Of a DNA stretch of 64,000 nucleotides, positions 49,266-64,000 are shown piece after piece. The stretch covers positions 26,720 through 90,719 of the forward strand of contig CACMAQ010000001.1 in assembly GCA_902611715.1 (NCBI GenBank), read 5' to 3'. Source of the stretch: an uncultured Pelagibacteraceae bacterium (lineage in GTDB: Bacteria > Pseudomonadota > Alphaproteobacteria > Pelagibacterales > AG-422-B15). The translations under genes were made by a program, and so were the position numbers. Each line of letters starts with the position of its first letter. Position 1 is the first letter of the stretch. The notes beneath the pieces are model-generated. The model worked only from the letters and a program-made list of their open reading frames with translations. It did not search any database and was not told the DNA's origin.

Positions 49266-49958
49266 ATGAAAGTATTAATGCTAAATCCCGGAGATCAGGT
49301 AGCCATTTCGTTTTGGTTGATCTCTATGGCCATGGTTGCCGCTACTGCTTTCTTCTTTCTTGAAAGAGATCGTGTAGCTGCTAAATGGAAAACGTCCCTA
49401 ACAGTTGCTGGTTTGGTCACTGGTGTGGCGGCGTGGCACTATTTCTACATGAGAGATGTATGGGTAGCTACAGGTGATTCGCCAACAGTCCTTCGTTATA
49501 TTGACTGGTTGATTACTGTGCCTCTACAAATCGTAGAATTCTATGTAATTCTTGCAGCGATGACTGCTGTTGCTTCAAGCCTTTTCTGGAGACTACTAAT
49601 TGCATCAATTATTATGCTTGTCGGCGGTTATCTCGGTGAAACTGGAGCGATGAATGTAACACTAGCCTTTGTAATTGGTATGGCTGGATGGTTGTATATC
49701 ATCTACGAGGTTTTTGCAGGTGAAGCGAGCAAGGCAAGTGCTGGTAGTGGGAATGCTGCCGGTCAGACTGCATTTAACGCATTGAGATTAATTGTTACAG
49801 TAGGATGGGCAATTTATCCAATTGGTTATGCTGTGGGTTACTTCGGTGGCGGCGTTGACGCTGGCGCATTGAACTTAATCTATAACCTTGCAGACTTTGT
49901 TAATAAAATTGCATTTGGTATGGCTATTTATGTAGCTGCAGTATCAGACAGCAACTAG
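49266..49958 (+). CDS. Proteorhodopsin, blue-absorbing type (Q105)
   Basis: RYIDWLITVPLQIVEF gives D97, Q105 and E108 in GPR numbering. The Schiff-base Lys lies in ADFVNKIAFG. 7 TM helices. The RBS AAGGGG lies upstream of the ATG. Confidence 0.9.
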   Translation: MKVLMLNPGDQVAISFWLISMAMVAATAFFFLERDRVAAKWKTSLTVAGLVTGVAAWHYFYMRDVWVATGDSPTVLRYIDWLITVPLQIVEFYVILAAMTAVASSLFWRLLIASIIMLVGGYLGETGAMNVTLAFVIGMAGWLYIIYEVFAGEASKASAGSGNAAGQTAFNALRLIVTVGWAIYPIGYAVGYFGGGVDAGALNLIYNLADFVNKIAFGMAIYVAAVSDSN

Positions 49959-50064: not shown

Positions 50065-50152
50065 GGCCTCATGGCGGAATTGGTAGACGCAAAGGACTTA
50101 AAATCCTTTGGGATTTATTCCCGTCCCGGTTCGAGTCCGGGTGAGGCCACCA
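50065..50152 (+). tRNA. tRNA-Leu (anticodon UAA)
   Basis: Hand-folded. Acceptor GGCCTCA/TGAGGCC; anticodon stem AAGGA/TCCTT with loop CTTAAAA; long variable arm; T arm CCCGG-TTCGAGT-CCGGG; encoded CCA. Confidence 0.85.
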
Positions 50153-51975: not shown

Positions 51976-52743
51976 TTAAAATTTAAATTGTTCATTTAAA
52001 ATTCTTTCATCAAATGAATGATCTTCATCGAATAAAAGTTCTACAACTTGATCTTTACTTTGATGTACTTCAACAGAACTGATATCTCTAAACTCAGTAC
52101 TATCAGCGACAACACTTACGGGTCTTTTCTTACTATCAATAATTTCAAATTTCACATTTGACTCGTTATTTAATATTGCACCTTTCCATCTTCTAGGTCT
52201 AAAAGCACTGATAGGAGTTAATGCAAGAACATCGGCATTTATTGGGAGTATTGGACCGTGAGCAGATAAATTGTAAGCTGTGCTACCAGACGGTGTTGAA
52301 ATTAATACACCATCACAGATTAGTTCATCTAACCTAACTTTGCCATCAACTGAAATTTTAATTTTTGATGCTTGATGTGTTTCTCTAAGTAATGATACTT
52401 CGTTAATAGCAATCGCCTCATGAATTGAGCCATCGACACTCACAGCTTTCATTATCAAAGGAGATATTTTTATTGATTGAGATTGATTAATTCTATTTAC
52501 CAAATCATTTTGATTTGAGGAATTCATCAGAAATCCAACACTACCATAATTTAATCCAAAAATAGGCAAGTGTCTGTCCATATGAGATTTTATGGCTTCA
52601 AGCATAAATCCATCACCGCCCAGTACTACTATCACATCAGCTTTATCAAATTCATTTTTACCAAACTTATCTTCTAAAATCTTTTTCTGAGAACTTGCCT
52701 CATCACTGTTAGAAGCCAAAAAAACTGGTTTATTTAAATTCAT
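51976..52743 (-). CDS. nadK: NAD kinase
   Basis: 255 aa with GGDGFML and the TPSGSTAYNLSAHGPI motif. Confidence 0.85.
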   Translation of the reverse strand: MNLNKPVFLASNSDEASSQKKILEDKFGKNEFDKADVIVVLGGDGFMLEAIKSHMDRHLPIFGLNYGSVGFLMNSSNQNDLVNRINQSQSIKISPLIMKAVSVDGSIHEAIAINEVSLLRETHQASKIKISVDGKVRLDELICDGVLISTPSGSTAYNLSAHGPILPINADVLALTPISAFRPRRWKGAILNNESNVKFEIIDSKKRPVSVVADSTEFRDISSVEVHQSKDQVVELLFDEDHSFDERILNEQFKF

Positions 52744-52823
52744 GGTTTTTTACCTACAAAAAAGTATTCCTTTATCCTAAAATCTTCTCTAATTGAACAT
52801 AATTAATTAATTATTCTTATCTT

Positions 52824-54317
52824 ATGTCTTTAGATGGGTATTTACTCTCAATAGATCAAGGCACAACCAGTTCAAGGGCCTTAATTTTAGATACTAATGG
52901 CAATATCATTAGTCAAAAAAACTATGAATTTAATCAGTATTTCCCGAATGATGGTTGGGTTGAGCATGATCCAATAGAAATTTTAAAGACAACTCAAGAC
53001 GCTATTAACTTTGTAATAAAAGAAACAAACATTAGTCCAAAAGACATCAATATCGCAGGTATGACGAATCAGAGAGAGACGGTTGTAGCATGGAATAAAT
53101 TAACAGGAGAGCCAGTCTATAATGCTATAGTATGGCAGGACAGACGAACAGAGAACTTTTGTGAGACTCTTAGAGAAAAAAATTTAATAAAACTTATCCA
53201 ATCAAAGACTGGTCTTATTATTGATCCATACTTTTCGGCAACGAAAATTCAGTGGATTATTGAAAATATTGAAGAAGCAAAAAATTTAATGAATGAAAAT
53301 AATCTGTTAGTTGGAACTATTGATACTTGGCTTATTTGGAATTTTACAAAAGGAGAATGTCATTTCACTGATGTTACAAATGCATCAAGAACTATGCTTT
53401 ACAATATAAATGAAGATTGTTGGGATGATGAATTATTAAAAATATTTAATATTAACAAAAAAATTTTACCTGATGTAAAAAATTGTGTTGATGATTTTGG
53501 AATAATAGACCCTAGTTTCTTTGGAGAAAAAATTTCAATAGGCGGTGTAGCTGGTGATCAACAGGCAGCAACAATTGGACAGGCTTGTTTCAAGGAAGGA
53601 ATGGTTAAATCTACTTATGGTACAGGTTGTTTTTTATTAATGAATACTGGAAGTAATTTTATAGAGTCTCAGTCCAATTTATTGTCCACCACAGCTTACA
53701 ATATATTCGATAAAAAAGATTTTGCTTTAGAGGGTAGTATCTTTAATGCGGGCACTGTTGTTCAATGGATGCGCGATGAAATGAATTTTATTAACGATGC
53801 AAGTAAGGTAGAAGAGCTCGCATATAAAAGTACCAACGAAATACAATTCATTCCTGCTTTTACTGGTTTGGGTGCTCCTTATTGGAACTCTGATGTAAGG
53901 GGTCAAATTACAGGAATTACTAGAGATACTTCTAAGGCTGATATTGCTATGGCTGCACTAAAATCAATATGTTATCAAACAAGAGATCTCGTTGAGTGCC
54001 TGCTTAAAGATACAGAGTTAAAGAGAAATGATTTTACTATTCGAGTTGATGGAGGCATGTCTAAAAATAATCTTATGATGCAATTATTATCGGATATCAC
54101 TCAAATAAGAATTGAAAGACCTTTAAATCAAGAGTCGACTGCTATGGGTGCAGCTTACTTAGCTGGAATGAAATCTGGCGTTTACAAAGATGTTGCAGAG
54201 GTCGAGAAATTATGGAAGACTGATTGCAAATTTGAACCTAATATTTCGTTGGACGAGGCAGATCAACAATATTATAGATGGTTAAAAAATGTAAAAGGAC
54301 TGATTAATAATGGTTGA
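52824..54317 (+). CDS. glpK: Glycerol kinase
   Basis: 497 aa. SIDQGTTSSR, TNQRETVVAW and GDQQAA are canonical GlpK blocks. Confidence 0.9.
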   Translation: MSLDGYLLSIDQGTTSSRALILDTNGNIISQKNYEFNQYFPNDGWVEHDPIEILKTTQDAINFVIKETNISPKDINIAGMTNQRETVVAWNKLTGEPVYNAIVWQDRRTENFCETLREKNLIKLIQSKTGLIIDPYFSATKIQWIIENIEEAKNLMNENNLLVGTIDTWLIWNFTKGECHFTDVTNASRTMLYNINEDCWDDELLKIFNINKKILPDVKNCVDDFGIIDPSFFGEKISIGGVAGDQQAATIGQACFKEGMVKSTYGTGCFLLMNTGSNFIESQSNLLSTTAYNIFDKKDFALEGSIFNAGTVVQWMRDEMNFINDASKVEELAYKSTNEIQFIPAFTGLGAPYWNSDVRGQITGITRDTSKADIAMAALKSICYQTRDLVECLLKDTELKRNDFTIRVDGGMSKNNLMMQLLSDITQIRIERPLNQESTAMGAAYLAGMKSGVYKDVAEVEKLWKTDCKFEPNISLDEADQQYYRWLKNVKGLINNG

Positions 54318-55056
54318 TGTAAAAAATAGTGTTTCAAAGGAAGAATGGGGAACAAGACAAGACTTGGCGGCATTCTATAGATCAATTCCATATTTTGGTT
54401 GGGATGATTTAATATTTACACATATCTCTGCTAAAGTTCCTGGGGCTGATGATGAATTTCTAATTAACCCTTATGGATTTTTATTTGACGAAATAACTGC
54501 TTCAAACTTGGTGAAGGTTAACTTAAAGGGAAAAATACTTAGTGACACAAATAATTTTATAAATCCTGCAGGTTTTACCATTCATAGCGCAATACATGAG
54601 TCAAGAGAGGATGCACATTGTATCGTACATCTTCACTCAAATGACGGTGTGGCAGTAGCCTCACTAAAAGATGGTTTGTTGCCTTTATCTCAAACTGGAA
54701 TGTTAGTTAGGAGTCAAATCGCATACCACGATTATGAAGGAGTTGCTCTTTTTGAAGAAGAAAAAGAGCGATTAGTAAAGGATCTTGGTGAAGCACGCTT
54801 AATGATACTTAGGAATCATGGGACATTGGCTTTAGGTAAAAATGTTGCAGAAGCATTCACTAATATATATTTTTTAGAAAAAGCCTGCTCTTATCAAGTA
54901 AGAGCTCTTTCTGGAAATCTTGAATTGAACTACCCCTCAGAGGAATCAATTGAAACAACAAGACAACAAGGTGAGGGAAGAGAAATGGCTGCGGCTTTAC
55001 TATGGCCTGCAGTGAAAAGAAAGATGGAACGATTAGACTCATCTTTTCTGAATTAA
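54310..55056 (+). CDS. Class II aldolase/adducin family protein
   Basis: 248 aa with a His cluster (HSAIH...VHLH) and the RNHG motif of class II aldolase/adducin N-terminal domains. Confidence 0.7.
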   Translation: MVDVKNSVSKEEWGTRQDLAAFYRSIPYFGWDDLIFTHISAKVPGADDEFLINPYGFLFDEITASNLVKVNLKGKILSDTNNFINPAGFTIHSAIHESREDAHCIVHLHSNDGVAVASLKDGLLPLSQTGMLVRSQIAYHDYEGVALFEEEKERLVKDLGEARLMILRNHGTLALGKNVAEAFTNIYFLEKACSYQVRALSGNLELNYPSEESIETTRQQGEGREMAAALLWPAVKRKMERLDSSFLN

Positions 55057-55079
55057 TCAAAATAAATAAGGAGATATAG

Positions 55080-56279
55080 ATGAAAGTATTGTGTATTTTA
55101 TACGATGATCCAAAAGGGGGTATGCCGTCAAGTTATCCTGTTGGAACTTTGCCAAAAATTGAAAAGTATCCAGATGGACAGACATTACCAACGCCAAAAG
55201 GTATTGATTTTAATCCAGGAGAATTGCTTGGATGTGTTTCTGGTGAACTAGGCCTAAGAAAATTTCTTGAGGATGCTGGCCATACATTGGTGGTTACAAA
55301 TGATAAAGATGCTCCTGGATGCGCAGCTGAAAAAGAACTTGTTGATGCTGATGTAGTAATTTCACAACCTTTCTTTCCATTTTATTTAACAAAAGAACGT
55401 ATTGCTATGGCTAAAAATCTGAAAATGGCAATAACTGCTGGTATCGGTTCAGACCACGTTGATTTACAGGCTGCCATGAATAATAAAATTGATGTCATGG
55501 AAGTTACCTTTTGTAATTCAAGGTCTGTAGCTGAGCATATTGTGATGATGATTTTATCTTTGGTGAGAGATTATCATAACCAATACAGAATTATTAATGA
55601 GGGCGGATGGAATATTGCAGATGCAGTGCAAAGATCATACGACCTTGAAGGTATGCATGTAGGCACAGTTGCAGCTGGAAGAATAGGCCTAGATGCATTA
55701 AGAAAACTTAAGCATTTTGACGTTCACATGCACTATTTTGACAGACACAGATTACCAGAGTCAGTAGAAAAAGAATTGAATTTGACTTTTCATGACTCAG
55801 TTGAGTCAATGGTTGGAGTATGCGATGTTGTTACAATCAATTGTCCACTTCACCCTGAAACTGAAAATCTATTTGACGATGAAATGATCGGAAAAATGAA
55901 AAAGGGAGCATATATTGTAAATACTGCACGTGGTAAAATTTGTAATCGAGATGCAATTGCGCGCGCATTAGAGTCGGGTCAATTAAGTGGTTATGCTGGT
56001 GATGTATGGTTTCCACAACCTGCTCCAAATGATCATGTGTGGAGAACGATGCCAAATCATGGAATGACTCCCCATACCTCAGGAACTTCGCTATCAGCAC
56101 AAGCAAGATATGCAGCTGGTGTAAGGGAAATTCTTGAATGCTTCTTTGCTGGAGAGGTTCAAAGAACAGAATACACAATTGTTAAAGATGGCGCACTTGC
56201 TGGAACAGGTGCTCACTCTTATAGTGAAGGTTCTGCTACAAGTGGTTCCGAAGAAGCGGCAAAATACCAGAGAAAATAG
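55080..56279 (+). CDS. fdh: NAD-dependent formate dehydrogenase
   Basis: 399 aa. It is colinear along its whole length with Pseudomonas sp. 101-type FDH (KVLCILYDDP..., GSDHVDL, GTVAAGRIGL, TLNCPLHPETE, GYAGDVWFPQPAP, GTGAHSYS), recalled from memory. Confidence 0.9.
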   Translation: MKVLCILYDDPKGGMPSSYPVGTLPKIEKYPDGQTLPTPKGIDFNPGELLGCVSGELGLRKFLEDAGHTLVVTNDKDAPGCAAEKELVDADVVISQPFFPFYLTKERIAMAKNLKMAITAGIGSDHVDLQAAMNNKIDVMEVTFCNSRSVAEHIVMMILSLVRDYHNQYRIINEGGWNIADAVQRSYDLEGMHVGTVAAGRIGLDALRKLKHFDVHMHYFDRHRLPESVEKELNLTFHDSVESMVGVCDVVTINCPLHPETENLFDDEMIGKMKKGAYIVNTARGKICNRDAIARALESGQLSGYAGDVWFPQPAPNDHVWRTMPNHGMTPHTSGTSLSAQARYAAGVREILECFFAGEVQRTEYTIVKDGALAGTGAHSYSEGSATSGSEEAAKYQRK

Positions 56280-56295
56280 TCTAAATTTTATATTG

Positions 56296-56315
56296 GGACG
56301 GAGTAAAATCCGTCC
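56296..56315 (+). terminator. Hairpin after fdh (weak terminator candidate)
   Basis: A 7-bp stem GGACGGA-gtaaaa-TCCGTCC lies 17 nt after the fdh stop. It has no clean T-run, only tatatagtactttt. Confidence 0.35.
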
Positions 56316-56329
56316 TATATAGTACTTTT

Positions 56330-56950
56330 ATGTTAAGTGTATTTAAAAATTATTTTTCACACTCAACCATTTATGGCTTCTTCATAATGGCAGTTGTTGG
56401 AATGTACTATATTGTTTCAAACGGACTGTTGTCTGAATATTTATTTTGGTTTTTTATACCAATTGTTCTAGCCCCTTTTTATGAATGGTATGTTCATAAG
56501 TATCAACTACATAGAGAACTAACAAAAAAAGAAGGTTGGTACAGAAGGTATCAAATTATACTGCACCATGGACACCATAGAGATCCCGATAATATTAAAC
56601 TTCAATTTGCGCCATGGAGATACCTAATCTATACATATGGACAAGTATATTTGCTCTATTCACTTATACTTTGGAGCTTTCCTGCAGCAATGGTACCTTT
56701 TACAGGACATCTAGTTTATCACTTGTGGTACGAGTGGATTCATTTGGCTCATCATTCCAAAGAGTATAAACCTGTTTCAGTAATTGGAAAAAAATTACGA
56801 GATGCCCATATGAGTCACCATTTTCATAATGAGAATTACAACTGGGGTATTACAAATATGATCGGTGATTATTTCTTTGGTACTTTAAAAGATAACAAAA
56901 CTATAAAAAAAAGTACTACTGCAAAATCAATAGCGGGTTATATAGATTAA
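56330..56950 (+). CDS. Fatty acid hydroxylase / sterol desaturase superfamily membrane protein
   Basis: 206 aa with 3-4 TM helices. Histidine boxes are HKYQLH, HHGHH, HLAHH and HMSHHFH. Confidence 0.6.
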   Translation: MLSVFKNYFSHSTIYGFFIMAVVGMYYIVSNGLLSEYLFWFFIPIVLAPFYEWYVHKYQLHRELTKKEGWYRRYQIILHHGHHRDPDNIKLQFAPWRYLIYTYGQVYLLYSLILWSFPAAMVPFTGHLVYHLWYEWIHLAHHSKEYKPVSVIGKKLRDAHMSHHFHNENYNWGITNMIGDYFFGTLKDNKTIKKSTTAKSIAGYID

Positions 56951-56955
56951 ATAAG

Positions 56956-57005
56956 TGGTGCTCCCTCGCGGACTTGAACCGCGAACTTATTGATTACAAA
57001 TCAAT
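56956..57005 (-). tRNA. Truncated tRNA-Thr(UGU): 3' ~50 nt only (anticodon arm to CCA); putative prophage att core
   Basis: The reverse complement reads ATTGA-TTTGTAA-TCAAT (anticodon TGT), AAGTT, CGCGG-TTCAAGT-CCGCG, AGGGAGC-A-CCA. The next 26 nt (57006-57031) cannot form a D arm, and the would-be 5' acceptor strand TATCCCA does not pair with AGGGAGC (GCTCCCT is needed). Confidence 0.7.
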
Positions 57006-57118
57006 TGTACGGAGTTCTGCCGTGTTGGGATATTCAAGTATAGCACTTTGCTAGTTCCACGTGAAACACTTTCTTCTCTCTCTTCATTAACATTAATACT
57101 CGAAGGGAGAGTAAAACT

Positions 57119-59557
57119 ATGGCCAAGATTTATGAAAGCCTACCTACATACCAAGACGAAGTTGCCCATGAAAAACAAATGCTGGAGAATGGCAAACTCC
57201 GAACCAACAAAAGACGGCTTGAGCACGTACAACGAGGCGAAGAGTCAGTCACATCTTACGGCAAGGAGATGGTCAAACGCACCATCAGACCTCTTGCCAA
57301 ATTAATCCAAGAATACCTTATCGAACAAGACGACAAGACAGGCGGAAGGCCAGAGATAGCCTTTCAGCATTTATGTGAAGTAGAACCAGAAATTTCTGCA
57401 TTAATCACAGCCAAGCATGTCATCAACACTGTCACGCAACAGAAGCCTTTTACAGGCTCATGTATTGCGCTAGGAGGCAAGCTTGAGACTGAGGTCGCTA
57501 TGAAGACATTCAAAATCACAAACTCAGAGCTCTATGAGACGATTATGAGAGATTTAGATGCAAGGCCTACCCGTCATTATACGTACAGACGTAGGAAGCT
57601 GAGAGAGTCAGCAAACAGAGCAGGTGTAGGTTGGCTTGAATGGAGCAAGACCGACAAGCTGCATGTAGGCATCCGCCTGGTTGAAATGATGGTGCTTGCT
57701 ACAGGTTTGATAGAGATTGGTCACGACATTGTGAAAAAGAAAAAGACCAAGGTCATCAAAGTTACACAAAAAACCATGGAATGGATTAAACACAGGAGTG
57801 CCTGGAATGAATTATTATCTCCAGAGTATATTCCTATGGTCACAAGGCCTTTAGGGTGGACATCTCCGCAAGGTGGTGGTTATGACCTTCTCAAGCTTGA
57901 TTTAGTGAAACAAAGAAACAAGCGGTACAAGGAGGAGTTGGCCAGCTATCAGATGCCAGCGGTTTATTCTGCAGTAAATCACATGCAGGCCACACCATTT
58001 CAAATAAATAGATTTATCTTTGATGTGATGAACCATGCCTGGGACAAAGGATTAGAGTGGGGTTCTATGCCATCATCTGAACTTCCACCATTTCCAAATA
58101 AACCACATGATATTGATACTAACGAAACAGCTTTAAAGAAATACAAAGCAGACAAACGTGAAGTACACGATGAGCATGCTGTGATTAAATCTAAAAGGAT
58201 TTTATTCACGAAGGTGCTCCTGGCTGCTAAGAAGTGCCTGAACTATGAGGAGATATATTATCCTTTACAATTAGACTTCAGAGGTCGTGTGTATTGTGTT
58301 CCTGCATTTTTAAATTATCAATCTGTAGGTGGTGCCAAGGCACTGATACGATTTGCCAACGGCAAGCCTATTACACATGAGAACAAAGGTATCTTCTGGT
58401 TAGCCATACATGGTGCTAACTGTTGGGGTAATGACAAAGTTGCTCTAGCTGACAGGCACAAGTGGGTTGAAGAAAACACAGAGTGGATAGAAGCCTGCGG
58501 TAAAGACCCTATTGCAAACTTGCAATGGAATGATGCAGACGAACCTTATCAGTTCTTAGCATTCTGTGATGAATGGGCACGTTACAAGCAAGAGGGTGAA
58601 GGATTTATCAGTCACATACCTGTTGCTGTTGATGGCAGCTGTAATGGACTGCAGCTTTACTCGCTGATGCTACGGGATGAAAAGGCAGGTAAGCTTGTGA
58701 ACCTAACAGTTACAGATAAGCCCCAGGATATTTACCAGGCGGTTGCTGATAGTGTTAGGGAGAAGGTGCGTAAGGATGCAACAGATGGTATACCTTTTGC
58801 ACAAGCTTGGTTGAACTATGGCATCACTCGTAAGATAACGAAGAGACCCATAATGACTATTTGTTATGGTTCGACTCGCTACAGTTGCACCGATTTTGTT
58901 CTTGAAGAAATCAAAAAGGCTGCAAGAAAAGGTAAGCCACATCCATTTACGAAGCTTAACATTTTGCAGGCATGCACCTATCTGGCTAAAGCTATATGGG
59001 CTAGCATTGGTGACAACTTATCATCTGCAAGACAAGGCATGGACTTCTTACAGGCCATCGCTCGTATCATTTGCAAAGACCAATTGCCTATACATTGGGT
59101 TAATCCTGTAGGCTTTCCTATCTGGCAATCATATCCAGAAACCAGGTCTATGCGTGTGAAGGCACACTTGATGGGTGAAGTTATTAAGCCAAGATTAAAC
59201 AAAGAACTTGATACCACAGACAGACGTAAGATGGTCAATGGTGTTGCAGCTAACTTTGTGCATAGCTTAGACAGTGCTTGCATGATGGAAACTGTAAACC
59301 TTTGTGCAAAGAGAGGCATAACAAACTTTTGTAACGTACATGACAGCTTCGGTACGACAGCTGCAGATGTTCATGTGCTTAATGAAACGTTGCGTGATGC
59401 TTTTGTAAAAATCTTTCAAGATGATGTGCTGCAAGATTTTAGAGATGGAATAGAAAAACTTATTCCTGAAAAGGAAAGAGGTAAACTTCCACAAGTTCCT
59501 GAAAAAGGAAATCTTAATCTTGATGACTTACGTCAATCAGAATTTTTCTTTGCTTGA
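57119..59557 (+). CDS. T7-like single-subunit DNA-directed RNA polymerase
   Basis: 812 aa. DGSCNGLQLYSLMLRDE (T7 DGSCSGIQHF...), RKITKRPIMTICYGS, FCNVHDSFGT and the C-terminal ...SEFFFA (T7 ...FAFA) are present. The RBS GGGAGAG lies upstream. Confidence 0.95.
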   Translation: MAKIYESLPTYQDEVAHEKQMLENGKLRTNKRRLEHVQRGEESVTSYGKEMVKRTIRPLAKLIQEYLIEQDDKTGGRPEIAFQHLCEVEPEISALITAKHVINTVTQQKPFTGSCIALGGKLETEVAMKTFKITNSELYETIMRDLDARPTRHYTYRRRKLRESANRAGVGWLEWSKTDKLHVGIRLVEMMVLATGLIEIGHDIVKKKKTKVIKVTQKTMEWIKHRSAWNELLSPEYIPMVTRPLGWTSPQGGGYDLLKLDLVKQRNKRYKEELASYQMPAVYSAVNHMQATPFQINRFIFDVMNHAWDKGLEWGSMPSSELPPFPNKPHDIDTNETALKKYKADKREVHDEHAVIKSKRILFTKVLLAAKKCLNYEEIYYPLQLDFRGRVYCVPAFLNYQSVGGAKALIRFANGKPITHENKGIFWLAIHGANCWGNDKVALADRHKWVEENTEWIEACGKDPIANLQWNDADEPYQFLAFCDEWARYKQEGEGFISHIPVAVDGSCNGLQLYSLMLRDEKAGKLVNLTVTDKPQDIYQAVADSVREKVRKDATDGIPFAQAWLNYGITRKITKRPIMTICYGSTRYSCTDFVLEEIKKAARKGKPHPFTKLNILQACTYLAKAIWASIGDNLSSARQGMDFLQAIARIICKDQLPIHWVNPVGFPIWQSYPETRSMRVKAHLMGEVIKPRLNKELDTTDRRKMVNGVAANFVHSLDSACMMETVNLCAKRGITNFCNVHDSFGTTAADVHVLNETLRDAFVKIFQDDVLQDFRDGIEKLIPEKERGKLPQVPEKGNLNLDDLRQSEFFFA

Positions 59558-59639
59558 TTGTGCTAGACTATGACGCAGAGTTTAGTGTCCGTATATGAAC
59601 TTATTAGTTCATTAACTTCAATCATAGGAGAATTATAAA

Positions 59640-60251
59640 TTGAAAAATAATTACAAACGAATTGTAACAGGTGTTGGTGTTAGTCAATATGCTTGGCTGA
59701 CACAACCTGATACAAGATTTGATGAAGTCGGACATTATAAAACTAATCTGATTTTATCAGGTGATGATGCTGAACAATTAAAAGCTAGCATCGATGCCGA
59801 AATACAAAATAGCATTGCTCTTGCTAAAGAGAAAGCTAAAGGCAAGAACTTGAAGACCGCACCTGCGCCATACGAAGATGACGTAGACGATGAAGGTAAG
59901 CCAACAGGCTCTACTGTTTTTAAGTTTAAGACTAAGGCTCAACTCACAACCAAAGACGGGAAGATAATTCCTAACAGGGTTGCAATCTTTGATTCAAAAG
60001 GTACTCCGATGACGGATTGCAATGTTTGGTCAGGGAGTGAGATGAAGGTAAGTGCAGAACTCGTACCCTACTATACAGCTATGGTTGGGGCTGGCGTGTC
60101 TATGAGACTACGAGCAGTTCAAATAACTAAATTAGTTGAAGGAGGGAATGGTAATGCCAAAGGATACGGCTTTGGGGAAGAGGAAGGCTATGAGCAATCC
60201 TTATCTGAAGCGCCATCAGAAGAGGAGAGCCAACAAGCCTTTGACTTCTAA
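59640..60251 (+). CDS. T7 gp2.5-like single-stranded DNA-binding protein
   Basis: 203 aa with a TTG start 8 nt after AGGAG. The YAWLTQPD, TVFKFKTK and VPYY..MVGAGVSMRL blocks parallel gp2.5. The acidic tail ends in DF, as in gp2.5. Confidence 0.8.
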   Translation: MKNNYKRIVTGVGVSQYAWLTQPDTRFDEVGHYKTNLILSGDDAEQLKASIDAEIQNSIALAKEKAKGKNLKTAPAPYEDDVDDEGKPTGSTVFKFKTKAQLTTKDGKIIPNRVAIFDSKGTPMTDCNVWSGSEMKVSAELVPYYTAMVGAGVSMRLRAVQITKLVEGGNGNAKGYGFGEEEGYEQSLSEAPSEEESQQAFDF

Positions 60252-60627
60252 CGAAGTCGGCTTGAGGTATGGTTTCCGTTCTGGTTTAGAGGAACGGATT
60301 GCCAGCGAGTTAGAGACAGAGAGTGTGGAGTTTGAGTTTGAAGAGACTAAACTGCAATATGTTAAGCCACAGAAAACACACACCTACACTCCTGACTTTT
60401 ACCTACCAAAACAAAAAATATTCATAGAGACCAAAGGATTATTTACTAGCGCAGACAGACAAAAGATGCGCCTGGTAAAAGAACAACATCCAGAAAAAGA
60501 CATCAGGTTTATTTTCAACAATTCACGAGCACGCATCAGTAAGAAGTCTAAGACGACTTACGGCATGTGGTGTGAAAAGTACAAGTTTCCTTTCGCTGAT
60601 AAACACCTACCTGTGGAGTGGTTATGA
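60136..60627 (+). CDS. T7 endonuclease I-like Holliday junction resolvase
   Basis: FRSGLEERIASELE...HTYTPDFYLP...IFIETKG....DRQKMRLVKEQHPEKDIRFIF matches T7 gp3. The start is uncertain (ATG 60136, 60148, 60154 or 60190), and all of these lie inside the SSB gene. Confidence 0.85.
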   Translation: MKEGMVMPKDTALGKRKAMSNPYLKRHQKRRANKPLTSNEVGLRYGFRSGLEERIASELETESVEFEFEETKLQYVKPQKTHTYTPDFYLPKQKIFIETKGLFTSADRQKMRLVKEQHPEKDIRFIFNNSRARISKKSKTTYGMWCEKYKFPFADKHLPVEWL

Positions 60628-61055
60628 GTAATCAAAGATTAGAGACAAAGTTTATTGTCGTACATTCTTCTCAAACTACTCCAGAGGAAGATTTATCTGC
60701 AAAAGATATTGATACCCTGCATCGCAAAGATGGACTTCTACAAAACGGCTATCACAAAATTATAAAACGTGATGGCACGATTGAAGAGGGAAGAGACATA
60801 ACTCTTTGTGGTGTTCATGTTGAGGAGCTAGGCCAGGTATCAAACAGGAACTCAATCGGGGTCTGCCTAATTGGAGGCAAGAACCATAGAGGAGAGCCTG
60901 ATTGTAATTTTACTTTGGCACAGTTTAAAGGGCTTAACGAGTTACTCGTTGAGTTGCAATCTCAATATGATAAAGTCCTCGTCATCGGTCACAGAGATGT
61001 GACTGATACATCCTGCCCCAATTTTGAAATTTCAGAGTTGGGTCGGTTTGTTTGA
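60624..61055 (+). CDS. N-acetylmuramoyl-L-alanine amidase (T7 lysozyme gp3.5-like)
   Basis: FIVVHSS, GYHKIIKRDGTIEEGRD, NSIGVCLIGG, NFT.AQ and H.....CP match T7 lysozyme. ATG 60624 overlaps the endonuclease stop (ATGA). An alternative GTG lies at 60618. Confidence 0.85.
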   Translation: MSNQRLETKFIVVHSSQTTPEEDLSAKDIDTLHRKDGLLQNGYHKIIKRDGTIEEGRDITLCGVHVEELGQVSNRNSIGVCLIGGKNHRGEPDCNFTLAQFKGLNELLVELQSQYDKVLVIGHRDVTDTSCPNFEISELGRFV

Positions 61056-61058
61056 TTG

Positions 61059-61101
61059 GAGCTCAGGGTTTGGTTAGCCTCCCTGGGCTCTTTTCTTTTC
61101 T
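61059..61101 (+). terminator. Stem-loop plus T-rich tract between amidase and primase-helicase genes (terminator or RNase III-type processing site)
   Basis: GAGCTCAGGG (61059-68) pairs with CCCTGGGCTC (61081-90) as 10 bp including one G-U. TTTTCTTTTCT follows. Confidence 0.45.
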
Positions 61102-61131
61102 CAGGAATATTTCAGCACAAAATTTTTAACA

Positions 61132-62706
61132 ATGACAGAGAGTAATTTCTTATATCACACAAGTTGTGACCAATGTGGGAGTCGTGACAACGTTGCCGTC
61201 TATGACGATGGACACACATACTGCTTTGGTTGCCAACACGTCACAAGGGAGAATGAATTGACAGAGACTAAATCCACTAACACAGGTTTTATTGAGTATG
61301 ATGTTAACGAACTGACATCACGCAAGATTGATTACAATACAGTACAGAAGTTTCATTACGGAACAGGTAAATACTTTGGCAGACCATGCCAAGTAGCAAA
61401 CTATTATAACTCTGATAGAGAGTTAGTTGCACAAAAGCTGCGGTATCCTAGTAAAGAGTTTCAATGGCTAGGTGATGCCAAGCAAGCTACATTGTTTGGC
61501 CAGCAGCTTTGGGGTAGCAAAGGTAAAATGATTGTTGTCACTGAAGGTGAGATAGATGCACTCAGTGTGTCTAAACTTTGGAACAACAAGTTTCCTGTTG
61601 TGTCTGTAAAGACAGGAGCAGCAGGTGCAAAGAAGGACTTATCAAAAGAATTAGAATGGCTTGAGAATTTTGACAGTGTTGTCTTGTGTTTTGACCAAGA
61701 CGATGCAGGCAAAAAGGCGGCAGTGGAGTGTGCTAGATTGTTCTCCCCTAACAAAGCTAAGATATGTACGCTGCCGCTTAAAGATGCAAACGAAATGCTG
61801 CAACAGAATAAGTTCAAAGAACTTACTGATTGCATTTGGTCAGCCAAACCATACAGACCAGACGGGATTGTATGTGGCACTGACATTTGGAATACAATCA
61901 AAGAGGAAGATAACTATGTTTCTGTTGATTATCCGTTTGAAACATTAAACGTTAAGACACATGGCTTGCGTAAAGGAGAGTTAGTTACACTGACAGCTGG
62001 TTCAGGTGTTGGTAAAAGTTCTTTCTGCAGGCACACAGCATTACACCTATTACAAAAAGATTTTAAAGTTGGATACATCGCACTTGAAGAGAGTATCAAA
62101 CGCACCTCACTCGGCATCATGGGAGTGAGCTTACACAAACCATTACATTTAACCAGGGAAGGAGTAGACGATGACACCCTACGACACACATATAACGCTA
62201 CTGTGGGTAATGGTAACTTTTATTTGTACAATCATTTTGGTAGTACAGTTGCCGACAATCTTATTTCAAAGATACGATACTTGGCTAAGGCATGTTCAGT
62301 TGATTTTGTTATTCTTGACCATTTGCACATGGCTCTTAGTGCTCTGGGTGACGGGCATACCAACGATGAACGTAAACTAATTGACTATACAGTTTCTGTA
62401 TTAAGAACTTTAGTAGAAGAGACAGGTATAGGATTAATTCTTGTTTCACACTTGCGCAGAAGTGAGGGTGATAAAGGATTTGAAGATGGCAAGAATGTTA
62501 CCATGAATGCACTTCGTGGTTCAGCATCTATAGGCCAACTAAGTGACATGATTATTTCAATGCAAAGAGACTTGCAGGCAGAAGACAACCTTACACAAGT
62601 AAACATATTGAAGAATAGATTTACAGGTGAGACGGGGCATGCCTGTGATTTACACTTTGACATAGCCACAGGTTGTTTGAGTGAAATACAAAACAGAGAC
62701 TTCTGA
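61132..62706 (+). CDS. T7 gp4-like bifunctional primase-helicase
   Basis: 524 aa with an N-terminal Cys4 zinc finger (CDQCGS...CFGC), a TOPRIM region (VTEGEIDALS, FDQDDAG), Walker A GSGVGKSSF and Walker B VILDH. Confidence 0.9.
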   Translation: MTESNFLYHTSCDQCGSRDNVAVYDDGHTYCFGCQHVTRENELTETKSTNTGFIEYDVNELTSRKIDYNTVQKFHYGTGKYFGRPCQVANYYNSDRELVAQKLRYPSKEFQWLGDAKQATLFGQQLWGSKGKMIVVTEGEIDALSVSKLWNNKFPVVSVKTGAAGAKKDLSKELEWLENFDSVVLCFDQDDAGKKAAVECARLFSPNKAKICTLPLKDANEMLQQNKFKELTDCIWSAKPYRPDGIVCGTDIWNTIKEEDNYVSVDYPFETLNVKTHGLRKGELVTLTAGSGVGKSSFCRHTALHLLQKDFKVGYIALEESIKRTSLGIMGVSLHKPLHLTREGVDDDTLRHTYNATVGNGNFYLYNHFGSTVADNLISKIRYLAKACSVDFVILDHLHMALSALGDGHTNDERKLIDYTVSVLRTLVEETGIGLILVSHLRRSEGDKGFEDGKNVTMNALRGSASIGQLSDMIISMQRDLQAEDNLTQVNILKNRFTGETGHACDLHFDIATGCLSEIQNRDF

Positions 62707-62896
62707 GTCATTGGAATGGACAGCTATTGTTTTGGAAGCATTAGCTGCTGCCGTCAAACACCCACACAAAACTATTACAATCGATGTAGCCACTGAAGAC
62801 AGTTATGAACTTATTGATAACGCAGTCTTCGCACTTATTGCTGAAGGCAATGAAGCTGCCTGGCGCATTCGTATTCAGAAACACACATTACATTAG
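62681..62896 (+). CDS. Small phage hypothetical protein
   Basis: The ORF lies just after gp4. The start is uncertain: ATG 62681 lies inside gp4, and TTG 62711 is a non-overlapping alternative. No recognisable motifs. Confidence 0.35.
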   Translation: MKYKTETSESLEWTAIVLEALAAAVKHPHKTITIDVATEDSYELIDNAVFALIAEGNEAAWRIRIQKHTLH

Positions 62897-62903
62897 GAGT
62901 AAA

Positions 62904-63242
62904 ATGAAAAAAGTAAAACTACCAGACACTATCAATGTGTCTTATCACACGCTCAAGATTACAATGCTTGACCCTACAGTAGCCCTGGAAGTTGGAGACC
63001 AACAAGGCAGCTATGATGCAAGAGGTCAGAATATATTTCTTGATAGTGCAATCATAGAGGAGGGTGGTGCAAGAGCTGTATCACTTGTGTTGCACGAAAC
63101 GTATCATGCGTGTTGGTACATATTTAATTTAGACAAAGCAGAAGAAGAGCGAGCTGTAGATAGCTTCGCAAACTTCACAACAGAATTATTAATACGAAAC
63201 GTACAACTTAGGAATTGGATTAATCAAGAGTTATGCGATTAG
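62904..63242 (+). CDS. Small phage protein with HExxH motif (possible mini zinc-metallopeptidase)
   Basis: 112 aa from ATG 62904, preceded by AGGAG. It contains LVLHETYHACWY. It overlaps the DNAP start by 10 nt. Confidence 0.5.
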   Translation: MKKVKLPDTINVSYHTLKITMLDPTVALEVGDQQGSYDARGQNIFLDSAIIEEGGARAVSLVLHETYHACWYIFNLDKAEEERAVDSFANFTTELLIRNVQLRNWINQELCD

Positions 63243-64000
63243 TATTTGATATTGAGACTGATGGTTTGTTACCAGATGTCACTAAGGTGCATTGCATTGT
63301 ACTTAAAGACCTCGACACAAATGAGGTAATCACACCTAAAATTAAAAAAGCAATGCAGCTATTAGGTGAAGCTGAACTTATCATTGGTCACAATGTTATT
63401 AAGTATGACATACCTGTACTGCAAAAACTGTATGGGTTTTATACAGAAGCAAAAATCTTTGACACTATTGTTGCTGCGCGTTTGATGTATCCTGACATCA
63501 AAGACAGAGACTTTCGCAAAAAAGATTTTCCTAAAAATATGATAGGCCGACATAGCCTGGAGGCATGGGGTCATCGTATTGGTAATTATAAATCTTCAAT
63601 CATTACTGATTGGAAAGAATTTACCCAGGAGATGTTAGACTACTGCATCCAGGATGTAGAAGTTACTGCAACTCTTTACAACATCCTCACACAATCAGTG
63701 CAATCAGACGCTCTAGATTTAGAACACAAAGTTGCACAGATAATTCACAAACAAGAACAGCATGGTTTTTCTTTTGACAAAACTGCTGCTGAAAAATTAT
63801 TCACAACACTCAACACAAGACGCTTAGAGCTTGAGAGTGAGCTGCAGAATATATTCCCACCCATTGTTGAACGAACAAAATTCATACCAAAAGTTAATAA
63901 TAAATCTAGGGGCTATGTAAAAGGTGTGCCTTACATGAAATGCAAGAAGGTTGCTTTCAATCCTTCTAGTCGTATGCACATAGCGCAAAGGCTCAAAGAT
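63233..64000 (+). CDS. T7 gp5-like DNA polymerase (family A), 3'-partial at window end
   Basis: The frame is open from ATG 63233 to the window end (translated by hand), so the gene is absent from the ORF track. MRLVFDIETDGL is Exo I, GHNVIKYDIPVL is Exo II and YCIQDVEV is Exo III. Confidence 0.9.
   Translation, partial: MRLVFDIETDGLLPDVTKVHCIVLKDLDTNEVITPKIKKAMQLLGEAELIIGHNVIKYDIPVLQKLYGFYTEAKIFDTIVAARLMYPDIKDRDFRKKDFPKNMIGRHSLEAWGHRIGNYKSSIITDWKEFTQEMLDYCIQDVEVTATLYNILTQSVQSDALDLEHKVAQIIHKQEQHGFSFDKTAAEKLFTTLNTRRLELESELQNIFPPIVERTKFIPKVNNKSRGYVKGVPYMKCKKVAFNPSSRMHIAQRLKD

What the first reader, a model, noticed from the sequence alone, without database searches (positions are those of the whole stretch)
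56956..64000. T7-like prophage junction at a truncated tRNA-Thr in a streamlined proteorhodopsin-bearing alphaproteobacterial genome
From 57119 on, the gene order and motifs are colinear with T7 genes 1 / 2.5 / 3 / 3.5 / 4 / 5:
- single-subunit RNAP
- gp2.5-type SSB with an acidic ...DF tail
- endonuclease I
- amidase
- primase-helicase
- family A DNAP with DIETDG

Immediately to the left, on the minus strand, only the 3' ~50 nt of a tRNA-Thr(UGU) is present (anticodon arm, variable loop, T arm, 3' acceptor strand, CCA). The place where the D arm and 5' acceptor strand should be does not fold. Because the tRNA 3' end faces the host gene at 56950, this is the geometry expected for the displaced host 3' tRNA fragment left after site-specific integration into a tRNA gene. 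The phage would re-supply the 3' half at the distal junction.

T7-like phages are the textbook lytic phages. Integrase-carrying marine relatives (P-SSP7, HTVC019P-type pelagiphages) are known to carry tRNA-matching attP sites. An actual integrated copy in a genome of this type is still rare and worth documenting.

Prediction: 30-45 kb further right there should be the structural and terminase genes, a tyrosine integrase, a second copy of the 56956-57005 core and the intact tRNA-Thr.
Basis: partly seen in the sequence, partly recalled or inferred. Interest (0 to 1): 0.85.

Follow-up and report, generated by a model that had tools for sequence, protein, structure and literature searches.

The report
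Pelagiphage integration junction at SAR11 tRNA-Thr
This is the left junction of a T7-like SAR11 phage that recombined through its attachment site into the tRNA-Thr locus of a Pelagibacter genome; this phage group is already known to integrate this way, so it is a good example, not a new kind.

Summary
Window 57119-64000 encodes a T7-type RNA polymerase, gp2.5-type SSB, endonuclease I, amidase, primase-helicase and the start of a family A DNA polymerase. At 56956-57007 (minus strand) lie only the 3' 52 nt of tRNA-Thr(UGU).

The host is a SAR11 (Pelagibacteraceae) genome. The phage is an HTVC019P-type pelagiphage, 99.0-99.9% identical to free-phage metagenome contigs that read integrase-attP-RNA polymerase. 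Their attP is an exact copy of nt 25-76 of the SAR11 tRNA-Thr.

The window matches attP from the RNA polymerase side into the anticodon arm. It then switches to host sequence, at the place where related genomes carry this tRNA. That is an attL, with the crossover mapped to 56988-57007.

- The fragment differs at four positions from a tRNA that is invariant in 37 SAR11 species. The closest relatives carry an old decayed fragment at this spot, then a small islet, then the intact tRNA. The phage probably used that old fragment, so the tRNA was probably not split.
- The 107,782-bp source contig also carries portal, capsid and tail genes. No terminase, regulator or integrase could be placed on it, so attR is unverified.

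It is a new member of a known kind.

The parts
56330..56950 (+). Last host gene before the junction: a fatty-acid hydroxylase family protein. In SAR11 relatives its stop codon lies 3-6 nt from the 3' end of tRNA-Thr or of a tRNA-Thr fragment.
   Evidence: Pfam FA_hydroxylase. Host flank is 90-98% nt identical to Pelagibacteraceae SAGs. The gene-to-tRNA arrangement is conserved.
56956..56987 (-). Host-side part of the att fragment: tRNA-Thr nt 45-76 (T arm, 3' acceptor strand, discriminator, CCA). It carries four substitutions relative to the invariant SAR11 tRNA-Thr and to attP, at 56962, 56966, 56968 and 56987. It is probably an old, decayed displaced fragment.
   Evidence: Comparison with attP and attB. 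The variant 32-mer is absent from GTDB representatives, JGI metagenomes and IMG/VR. Two of the changes would break acceptor pairs 3-70 and 7-66 with the standard 5' half (read directly from the sequence).
56988..57007 (-). Crossover segment: 20 nt (TATTGATTACAAATCAATTG) covering the anticodon stem-loop (UGU). It is identical in attP, attB and this attL, so strand exchange must have happened here.
   Evidence: All host-type differences lie to its left. Identity to attP continues to its right, where attB reads CTCTACC. A sister-phage scar in L029 switches inside the anticodon loop.
57008..57118 (+). Phage right arm of attP and leader of the RNA polymerase gene. It is continuous with the free-phage sequence.
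   Evidence: Matches the int-attP-RNAP contigs L004-L008 with only a few single-base differences (none in L007). The window's phage part is 99.0-99.9% identical overall to the metagenome phage contigs.
57119..59557 (+). Single-subunit (T7-type) RNA polymerase, 812 aa.
   Evidence: Pfam RNA_pol 1.4e-109. PHROG 414, 3.4e-253. 58-61% aa identity to HTVC109P/HTVC168P. Same protein as P0015, on an NCBI contig of 107,782 bp.
59640..60251 (+). gp2.5-type single-stranded DNA-binding protein with an acidic C-terminus ending DF.
   Evidence: Pfam SBB_T7; translation.
60190..60627 (+). Endonuclease I (Holliday junction resolvase).
   Evidence: Pfam Phage_endo_I 2.4e-49. Called as 145 aa in the metagenome contigs.
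60624..61055 (+). N-acetylmuramoyl-L-alanine amidase (T7 gp3.5-like).
   Evidence: Pfam Amidase_2.
61132..62706 (+). Primase-helicase (T7 gp4-like), 524 aa.
   Evidence: Pfam Helic-prim_T7_N, Toprim_2 and DnaB_C. The exact protein occurs on 10 metagenome contigs.
62681..63242 (+). Two small phage ORFs (71 aa and 112 aa) of unknown function.
   Evidence: The same genes are called in the metagenome contigs. The 112-aa ORF matches PHROG 1233, function unknown.
63233..64000 (+). N-terminal 255 aa of the family A DNA polymerase (3'-5' exonuclease domain, DIETDG motif). It runs off the window.
   Evidence: Translation; Pfam DNA_pol_A_exo1. The full 575-aa protein P0223 is on the 107,782-bp contig.

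Best explanation
Window 56956-57118 is the attL junction made when an HTVC019P-type (T7-like, Autographiviridae) pelagiphage recombined through its attP into the tRNA-Thr(UGU) locus of a SAR11 (Pelagibacteraceae) chromosome.

The free phage carries, between its tyrosine integrase gene and its RNA polymerase gene, a 52-nt exact copy of tRNA-Thr nt 25-76. The integrase exchanges strands within the anticodon stem-loop (56988-57007). Everything to the right is phage. Everything to the left stays host.

The host partner was most likely not the working tRNA gene. It was most likely an older, already decayed tRNA-Thr 3' fragment left beside the hydroxylase gene by an earlier integration. If so, the intact tRNA-Thr should still sit beyond the far end of the prophage, after a small islet.

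Shown: the junction anatomy, the attP, the empty and scarred sites in relatives, and continuation of the phage for at least 20 kb on the same contig. Inferred: which host copy was used, that an integrase catalysed the exchange, and that a complete prophage with attR exists.
For: 1. Phage identity. The genes and their order are T7-like. The best DNA matches are Pelagibacter phages HTVC168P and HTVC109P at about 66%, with 58-73% aa identity for RNA polymerase and primase.
2. Free-phage form. Contigs L004-L008 that carry the window's exact primase read integrase, 228 nt, RNA polymerase. More than 30 further contigs of the same phage population, fetched through its integrase and terminase variants, have the same layout. 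The window's phage part is 99.0-99.9% identical to them.
3. attP equals the tRNA. The spacer holds TGGTGCCCCCACACGG...CAATTG, identical over 52 nt to the tRNA-Thr(UGU) of 37 Pelagibacteraceae species. It is invariant in 26 of 26 phage contigs.
4. Hybrid junction. The window follows attP from the right as far as 56988. It then carries four host-type differences and the host hydroxylase gene, with the same 5-nt spacer as relative L026.
5. Empty site. L030 and others have the hydroxylase stop codon, 3-6 nt, then the intact tRNA-Thr.
6. Old-fragment model. Relatives with 88-99% identity in the adjoining 150 nt of the hydroxylase gene (L026, L033, L048, L039, L016) have a decayed fragment at this exact position, then a roughly 350-bp islet, then the intact tRNA. 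L033 shares the window's change at 56966. The variant 32-mer was found nowhere else.
7. Recurrent use of the site. Phage-arm scars lie next to tRNA-Thr in L021, L029, L045 and L046.
8. Same molecule. Host FDH-like protein P0178, RNA polymerase P0015, primase, DNA polymerase, exonuclease, RNR, portal, capsid, tube A and a gp14-like protein all have a 107,782-bp NCBI contig as the longest contig on record.
9. The integrase has the R176, H265, R268, H291 and Y300 catalytic residues.
Against: No attR, integrase or second att copy could be tied to the source contig. The exact terminase, lysozyme, MarR-like regulator, integrase and small late ORFs of the closest free-phage contigs are not on it. None of the 120 closest terminase sequences is on it either. 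An attR-specific pattern gave no hit in JGI metagenomes. Every metagenome contig that reaches the integrase-RNA polymerase spacer shows the attP form, not an integrated form. The source contig itself could not be read, so read support for the junction is unknown. The choice between 'integrated into the old fragment' and 'integrated into the tRNA and later lost the islet by repeat recombination' rests on parsimony only.
Confidence: 0.8

Rival explanations
1. The phage integrated into the working tRNA-Thr gene of a host whose tRNA-Thr has a variant 3' half. The fragment at 56956-57007 is the freshly displaced host 3' half, and the phage re-supplies the 3' half at attR.
For: The geometry is the classical one. 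One of the four changes (U64 to C) turns a G-U pair of the T stem into G-C, as a working variant might. Some relatives (L030, L041, L024, L038) have a plain site without an old fragment.
Against: The tRNA-Thr 3' 52 nt and the 5' 24 nt are identical in all 37 SAR11 species recovered, whose flanks are only 75-98% identical. The variant 32-mer has no match in GTDB representatives, 241 million JGI metagenome records or IMG/VR. A70 and A66 would mispair with the standard 5' strand. The closest relatives have the old-fragment architecture.
Confidence: 0.12
2. The junction is real, but it is a transient integration in an infected cell (integration during a lytic cycle), not a stable lysogen.
For: T7-like cyanophages integrate without establishing lysogeny (title and abstract of PMC8776855). 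Zhao et al. raise the same possibility for these pelagiphages (bioRxiv 10.1101/410191). The phage is 99.0-99.9% identical to circulating free phage. The nearest host relatives in the databases are single-cell genomes. None of the 37 species representatives has an intact prophage at this site.
Against: The free phage carries a MarR-like winged-helix regulator next to the integrase. Scars of both phage arms persist in several lineages, which requires integrated copies that were inherited. Nothing in the sequence separates the two states.
Confidence: 0.3
3. This is an assembly chimera. A host contig and a co-occurring free-phage contig were joined by the assembler through the sequence they share at the att site.
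For: attP and the standard tRNA share 52 identical nt. Only attP forms are seen in metagenomes. No attR was found. The source contig appears to stop inside the phage. One other odd host-phage join exists, in L060.
Against: With the window's variant left part, host and phage share only the 20 nt at 56988-57007. From my own knowledge of assemblers, that is shorter than the k-mers normally used for final contigs. The switch point falls exactly in the anticodon arm, where this integrase family exchanges strands. Independent scars show that such phages do integrate at this locus.
Confidence: 0.06
4. This is a truncated, defective prophage. The late and early ends (terminase, lysozyme, regulator, integrase) have been deleted, as in the short scars seen in other SAR11 genomes.
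For: No terminase, lysozyme, MarR-like regulator or integrase can be placed on the 107,782-bp contig, although 11 other phage proteins can. Deletion-derived scars are common at this locus.
Against: All ORFs in the window are intact and 99% or more identical to free phage. At least 20 kb of colinear phage genes are present. A contig break inside the phage explains the same data more simply.
Confidence: 0.12

Closest known systems
HTVC019P-type pelagiphages (genus Pelagivirus, Autographiviridae), e.g. HTVC109P and HTVC168P; integration described by Zhao et al. (bioRxiv 10.1101/410191)
   Same: T7-like gene order with a single-subunit RNA polymerase. A tyrosine integrase lies directly upstream of the RNA polymerase gene with attP in the spacer. 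A MarR-like regulator lies next to the integrase, as in HTVC109P. attB lies in a SAR11 tRNA gene.
   Different: Only about 66% nt and 58-73% aa identity in replication proteins, and 40% for the integrase. The target is tRNA-Thr(UGU), whereas the isolates use tRNA-Cys, tRNA-Leu or tRNA-Arg. No phage in the 2025 phage collection carries this attP. The 52-nt core is longer than the reported 11-46 bp.
P-SSP7 and other integrase-carrying T7-like cyanophages
   Same: An integrase at the left end and a tRNA-matching attP (a 42-bp match to tRNA-Leu, as quoted). Integration has been demonstrated experimentally (PMC8776855).
   Different: Different host phylum and no close sequence relationship. For the cyanophages, integration did not lead to lysogeny (PMC8776855). 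Whether it does here is unknown.
Anticodon-loop class of tRNA integration sites used by tyrosine integrases
   Same: The identity block runs from the 5' side of the anticodon stem to the tRNA 3' end, and the crossover maps to the anticodon stem-loop.
   Different: Here the recombination partner seems to have been a non-functional relic copy, not the tRNA gene itself.
HTVC106P-type environmental pelagiphage sequences with integrases and matches to SAR11 tRNA-Thr or tRNA-Asn (bioRxiv 10.1101/2019.12.14.876532)
   Same: They have the same proposed target gene family in SAR11, tRNA-Thr. This may explain part of the multi-copy att arrays at this locus.
   Different: They are a different phage group, not an RNA-polymerase-bearing T7-like phage, and their att sites were only predicted from sequence matches.
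SAR11 prophage PNP1 (Morris et al. 2020) and catalogued Pelagibacter proviruses (PMC10533544)
   Same: Integrated phages in SAR11 genomes. The viral cluster tVC 577_0 groups with HTVC011P/HTVC019P and was found in Pelagibacter genomes.
   Different: PNP1 is related to HTVC010P, not to T7-like phages. The catalogue text searched here (keyword search only) gave no att site or junction anatomy for this phage.

Membership tests
Autographiviridae (T7-like phages) | Phage-encoded single-subunit RNA polymerase | tested here: met
   Pfam RNA_pol 1.4e-109 and RPOL_N. PHROG 414 with full-length match.
Autographiviridae (T7-like phages) | Colinear early and DNA-metabolism gene order (RNA polymerase, SSB, endonuclease I, amidase, primase-helicase, DNA polymerase), all on one strand | tested here: met
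   The order continues as exonuclease, RNR, portal, scaffold, capsid, tube and nozzle in the near-identical contigs L003 and L068.
Autographiviridae (T7-like phages) | Linear genome with direct terminal repeats | not testable with these tools
   Metagenome contigs run from terminase through to integrase without a break. That fits terminal repeats collapsed in assembly, but the genome ends were not determined.
HTVC019P-type pelagiphage (Pelagivirus) | Closest relatives are HTVC019P-group phages, with shared synteny | tested here: met
   26 of 38 phage records matched are Pelagibacter phages. The best are HTVC168P and HTVC109P, covering 81-84% of the query at 66% identity. aa identities are 52-75%. 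Whether this falls inside the genus by ICTV thresholds was not tested.
HTVC019P-type pelagiphage (Pelagivirus) | Tyrosine integrase upstream of the RNA polymerase gene with attP in the spacer | tested here: met
   Met for the free-phage form (L006, L059-L067, L077-L086). Pfam Phage_integrase 2e-25 and R-H-R-H-Y residues. Not seen in the window itself.
HTVC019P-type pelagiphage (Pelagivirus) | Infects SAR11 | tested here: met
   The phage is joined to DNA that is 90-98% identical to Pelagibacteraceae single-cell genomes. attP equals the SAR11 tRNA-Thr.
Site-specific prophage in a tRNA locus | attP carries a copy of the 3' part of the target tRNA | tested here: met
   52 of 52 nt are identical to tRNA-Thr(UGU) nt 25-76 of 37 SAR11 species.
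Site-specific prophage in a tRNA locus | attL hybrid: host sequence on one side of the core, the phage arm on the other, at the position of attB | tested here: met
   empty site in L030.
Site-specific prophage in a tRNA locus | attR with the integrase at the other end, on the same replicon | tested here: inconclusive
   The source contig could not be read. Integrase, MarR-like regulator, lysozyme and terminase variants of the closest phages are not recorded on the 107,782-bp contig. An attR pattern had no hit in JGI metagenomes.
Site-specific prophage in a tRNA locus | The target is the functional tRNA gene, which is split and then restored by the phage copy | tested here: inconclusive
   The host-side fragment has 4 changes relative to the invariant tRNA. 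Relatives carry a relic fragment at this position. This points to a relic target but is not proven.
Stable lysogen | The prophage is maintained and inherited; a repressor is active; the phage can be induced | not testable with these tools
   There is only indirect evidence: a MarR-like regulator in the free phage and inherited scars in other lineages.

The most novel reading that the evidence does not exclude
The phage did not split the tRNA gene. It recombined with a decayed, non-functional tRNA-Thr relic left by an earlier integration. More broadly, the SAR11 tRNA-Thr locus is a stacked array of att copies: up to five in one genome, about half of the 37 species with at least one relic or islet, and a conserved 90-aa cargo ORF. 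That would be a fossil record of repeated integration by T7-like pelagiphages, and possibly others, in a genome usually described as almost prophage-free.
Probability: 0.5. Interest if true: 0.55.

Novelty: new member of a known kind. Interest (0 to 1): 0.4.

Why it matters
SAR11 is the most abundant bacterial group in the ocean. Its streamlined genomes were long thought to lack prophages. Integration of HTVC019P-type phages has mostly been shown by PCR and read mapping in infected cultures.

A natural junction is a useful reference case for three reasons. Its crossover is mapped to 20 nt. A matching attP is seen in dozens of ocean metagenome contigs. It adds a new target, tRNA-Thr(UGU), for this phage group.

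The surrounding comparison also shows that this tRNA locus has taken up phage DNA many times in different SAR11 lineages. That bears on how often lysogeny or transient integration happens in SAR11, and on how small cargo genes enter these genomes. It does not reveal a new mechanism.

Tried and rejected
1. Reading the source contig beyond 64000. Exact-protein look-ups of the hydroxylase, the FDH-like protein, the RNA polymerase and P0015 were 'not on record'. The contig is known only through cluster tables, which give its length of 107,782 bp. Its content was therefore inferred gene by gene.
2. Searching for the window's variant fragment. There were no hits in GTDB representatives (degenerate core), JGI metagenomes or IMG/VR.
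3. Searching for attR in JGI metagenomes with the integrase-side flank, the core and a following CTC or GTC. No hit.
4. Looking for integrated copies through integrase variants (P0001, P0158, P0150, P0156) and through a 66,954-bp contig (P0166). All were attP forms. The long contig is longer than the ~40.5-kb genomes of this sister phage and reads terminase to integrase to RNA polymerase without a break; I take it to be a wrap-around or concatemer assembly, but only 21.6 kb of it was read.
5. IMG/VR gave only one 4-kb contig of this phage. Three IMG/VR hits to the intact tRNA sequence turned out to be unrelated phages encoding their own tRNA-Thr.
6. I considered that the four differences came from the phage's own attP. 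Rejected, because attP is invariant in 26 of 26 contigs.
7. I considered that the fragment decayed after this integration. Rejected, because 4 changes in 32 nt do not fit a phage that is 99.0-99.9% identical to free phages.
8. The promoter/terminator scan and the repeat scan of the junction gave nothing above background, apart from the antisense T-arm hairpin.
9. A fuzzy-regex scan timed out and was replaced by blastn-short.
10. The correct number is four (corrected).

Full report
**Observation**

The region is as described. Pfam assigns the following:
- 57119-59557: single-subunit RNA polymerase.
- 59640-60251: T7 gp2.5-type SSB, ending ...QQAFDF.
- 60190-60627: endonuclease I.
- 60624-61055: Amidase_2.
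- 61132-62706: T7-type primase-helicase.
- From 63233: the exonuclease domain of a family A DNA polymerase, MRLVFDIETDG.

To the left, on the minus strand, 56956-57007 reads in tRNA sense CAATTGATTTGTAATCAATAAGTTCGCGGTTCAAGTCCGCGAGGGAGCACCA. That is the anticodon arm (UGU), variable loop, T arm, 3' acceptor strand, discriminator base and CCA. ARAGORN calls no tRNA there. Rfam's tRNA model stays below its threshold (26.8 against 29 bits), with the D arm deleted and the acceptor mispaired. GC rises from about 0.33 to 0.40 at the junction.

**Host**

A scan of one genome per species with the att core returned 37 loci. All are Pelagibacteraceae single-cell or metagenome-derived genomes. Window 52001-56955 is 90-98% identical to many of them; the best is AG-404-P01 at 97.9%. 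A proteorhodopsin gene lies at 49266-49958. The host is SAR11.

**Phage**

The best DNA matches are Pelagibacter phages HTVC168P and HTVC109P, at about 66% over 81-84% of the query. Protein identities are 58-61% for the RNA polymerase and 71-73% for the primase.

The window's exact primase protein is on ten ocean metagenome contigs. Where those contigs reach far enough left, the gene before the RNA polymerase is a tyrosine integrase, separated by 228 nt (L004-L008). More than thirty further contigs of the same phage population, fetched through its integrase and terminase variants, show the same layout. Several run terminase, lysozyme, about 2 kb, MarR-like regulator, integrase, RNA polymerase. 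The window's phage part is 99.0-99.9% identical to these contigs. The integrase has a Phage_integrase domain and the residues R176, H265, R268, H291 and Y300. This layout matches what Zhao et al. describe for HTVC019P-type pelagiphages, where attP lies between the integrase and RNA polymerase genes and attB lies in a SAR11 tRNA gene (bioRxiv 10.1101/410191).

**Junction anatomy**

- attP (L006 and others) reads ...GTTGGAATTAG | TGGTGCCCCCACACGGACTTGAACCGCGAACC TATTGATTACAAATCAATTG | TACGGAGTTCTGCC....
- The 52 nt between the bars are identical to the tRNA-Thr(UGU) of all 37 SAR11 species. There they continue as CTCTACCAATTGAGCTATAGGGGC, the tRNA 5' half.
- The window reads ...GATTAAATAAG | TGGTGCTCCCTCGCGGACTTGAACCGCGAACT TATTGATTACAAATCAATTG | TACGGAGTTCTGCC...

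So the window equals attP from the RNA polymerase side through the anticodon arm. It differs from attP at 56962, 56966, 56968 and 56987. It then runs into the host hydroxylase gene with the same 5-nt spacer as relative L026. This is the signature of an attL, and strand exchange is confined to 56988-57007.

A sister phage supports a crossover in the anticodon loop. Its attP shares only GATTACAAATC with the tRNA, and its scar in L029 switches from host to phage right after that motif.

Plain empty sites exist: hydroxylase stop codon, 3-6 nt, intact tRNA-Thr in L030, L041, L024 and L038.

**Which host copy was used**

The four differences are not phage variation, because attP is invariant in 26 of 26 contigs. 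They are also unlikely to be a working host allele:
- The tRNA is identical in 37 species whose flanks differ by up to 25%.
- The variant 32-mer is absent from GTDB representatives, 241 million JGI metagenome records and IMG/VR.
- A70 and A66 would mispair with the standard 5' strand.

They cannot have arisen since this integration, because the phage is 99.0-99.9% identical to circulating phages.

The closest relatives offer an explanation. L026, L033, L048, L039 and L016 carry a tRNA-Thr 3' fragment at exactly this spot, with scattered lineage-specific substitutions. A roughly 350-bp islet with a 90-aa ORF follows, and then the intact tRNA. L033's fragment shares the window's change at 56966.

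The simplest reading is that the window's lineage had this relic and the phage recombined with it, because the relic still had an intact anticodon arm. A two-step alternative gives the same sequence: integration into the real tRNA, followed by recombination between the two direct repeats that removed the islet. Either way, the fragment is older than this prophage.

**A recurrent site**

Of the 37 loci:
- About 19 have at least one extra fragment or the islet.
- 15 have the islet.
- L029 has four fragments plus the tRNA.
- L021, L046 and L029 keep an 80-87% homologue of the phage's integrase-side arm next to the intact tRNA.
- L029 and L045 keep a homologue of the RNA-polymerase-side arm next to a fragment.
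- None has an intact prophage.

**Far end of the prophage**

The source contig could not be fetched. Cluster tables show that the window's RNA polymerase (P0015), its host FDH-like protein (P0178) and its primase have a 107,782-bp NCBI contig as the longest contig on record; the first two are recorded on one NCBI contig only.

I read all of these as one contig. On that reading the phage continues for at least about 20 kb from attL.

In contrast, the following proteins of the closest free-phage contigs are not on it:
- the terminase;
- both lysozyme variants;
- the orf69 and orf76 late ORFs;
- a 78-aa early ORF;
- both MarR-like variants;
- all integrase variants that were listed.

Among the 120 closest terminase sequences, nearly all of which are singleton clusters, none is on a 107,782-bp contig.

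The contig therefore most likely ends inside the phage, between the gp14-like gene and the late small ORFs. A truncated prophage is the alternative.

An attR-specific pattern found nothing in JGI metagenomes. All metagenome contigs that reach the spacer show the attP form.

**Chimera or biology**

A misjoin through the att repeat needs shared sequence. With the variant left part, host and phage share only 20 nt. The switch is where the integrase family acts, and inherited scars show that such phages do integrate here. I put a chimera at about 6%.

Whether the cell was a stable lysogen or was caught during an infection cannot be told from sequence. T7-like cyanophages integrate without lysogeny (PMC8776855), and Zhao et al. 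raise the same point for pelagiphages.

**Comparison with what is known**

The element passes the tests for a T7-like phage and for an HTVC019P-type pelagiphage. It is a distinct lineage: about 66% nt identity overall and 40% aa identity for the integrase.

Its target, tRNA-Thr(UGU), is not among those reported for isolates, which use tRNA-Cys, tRNA-Leu or tRNA-Arg. No phage in the 2025 phage collection carries this attP. tRNA-Thr has been proposed as a target only for another pelagiphage group, the HTVC106P-type (bioRxiv 10.1101/2019.12.14.876532). Proviruses clustering with HTVC011P/HTVC019P in Pelagibacter genomes have already been catalogued (PMC10533544).

**Verdict**

This is a real and well-resolved attL of a known kind of temperate T7-like pelagiphage, with a new tRNA target and a probable relic-site integration. 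It is a new member of a known kind, of moderate interest.

Noticed in passing
L029 1797-3763 (AG-461-B04); also L019, L027, L045, L046, L021, L036: Arrays of tRNA-Thr 3' fragments lie between the hydroxylase gene and the intact tRNA-Thr. L029 has four fragments plus the tRNA, spaced about 0.4-0.5 kb apart, each bounding a small insert. About half of the 37 SAR11 species representatives have at least one relic or islet.
   Followed up: partly
L026 1531-1830 and 14 other loci (L015-L018, L021-L023, L027, L029, L032, L033, L039, L044, L048): A roughly 300-bp islet, conserved at 92-100% nt, encodes a 90-aa ORF (MFVSFTDWEFDGN...). It sits between a relic fragment and the intact tRNA-Thr. It has no Pfam match and no match in the phage contigs, so it looks like fixed cargo from an old integration.
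   Followed up: partly
L019 2647-3503 (AG-895-F20): The insert between two perfect att copies encodes an ORF with an HNH-like motif (CHHIVPLHE...CSNCHRMVH), different from the usual islet.
   Followed up: no
L060 1-2650 (ENA ERZ841439 NODE_6896, coverage about 4): Host ribosomal protein genes (L18, S5, L30, L15) on the minus strand are joined to the phage's small late ORFs upstream of the terminase, far from attP. This could be an assembly chimera or an illegitimate recombination or transduction-type product.
   Followed up: no
L073-L075 (ENA contigs of 66,954, 40,549 and 40,511 bp): A sister phage (primase in the same 90%-identity cluster as the window's) has a genome of about 40.5 kb. Its integrase-RNA polymerase spacer shares only GATTACAAATC with the tRNA-Thr anticodon loop. 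The 66.9-kb contig is longer than that genome and reads terminase to integrase to RNA polymerase without a break in the 21.6 kb read, so it is probably a wrap-around or concatemer assembly.
   Followed up: partly
L059-L067, L077-L088: The regulator-integrase module of this phage population is called in several combinations: 270 aa + 336 aa directly adjacent (L060, L065, L067), 270 aa + 324/325 aa (L077-L088) and 267 aa + 325 aa (L051, L059, L061-L064, L066). The shared terminase protein is 100% identical across L059-L067, which suggests module exchange within the population.
   Followed up: no
L052, L053, L054 (IMG/VR contigs): Unrelated phages encode their own complete tRNA-Thr. It is identical to the SAR11 tRNA-Thr across the 43-nt search pattern (variable loop, anticodon arm and D arm) but has a different acceptor stem (GCCCTCA...).
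   Followed up: partly
window 56966-56994 (+): Read on the plus strand, the antisense of the tRNA T arm forms a GC-rich hairpin followed by a T-rich stretch. The scan flags it as terminator-like, directly after the hydroxylase gene and before the phage RNA polymerase gene. It may limit read-through from the host gene into the prophage.
   Followed up: no
window 49266-49958 and 50065-50152: A proteorhodopsin gene (RYIDWLITVPL motif) lies next to the only complete tRNA in the window, tRNA-Leu(UAA).
   Followed up: partly
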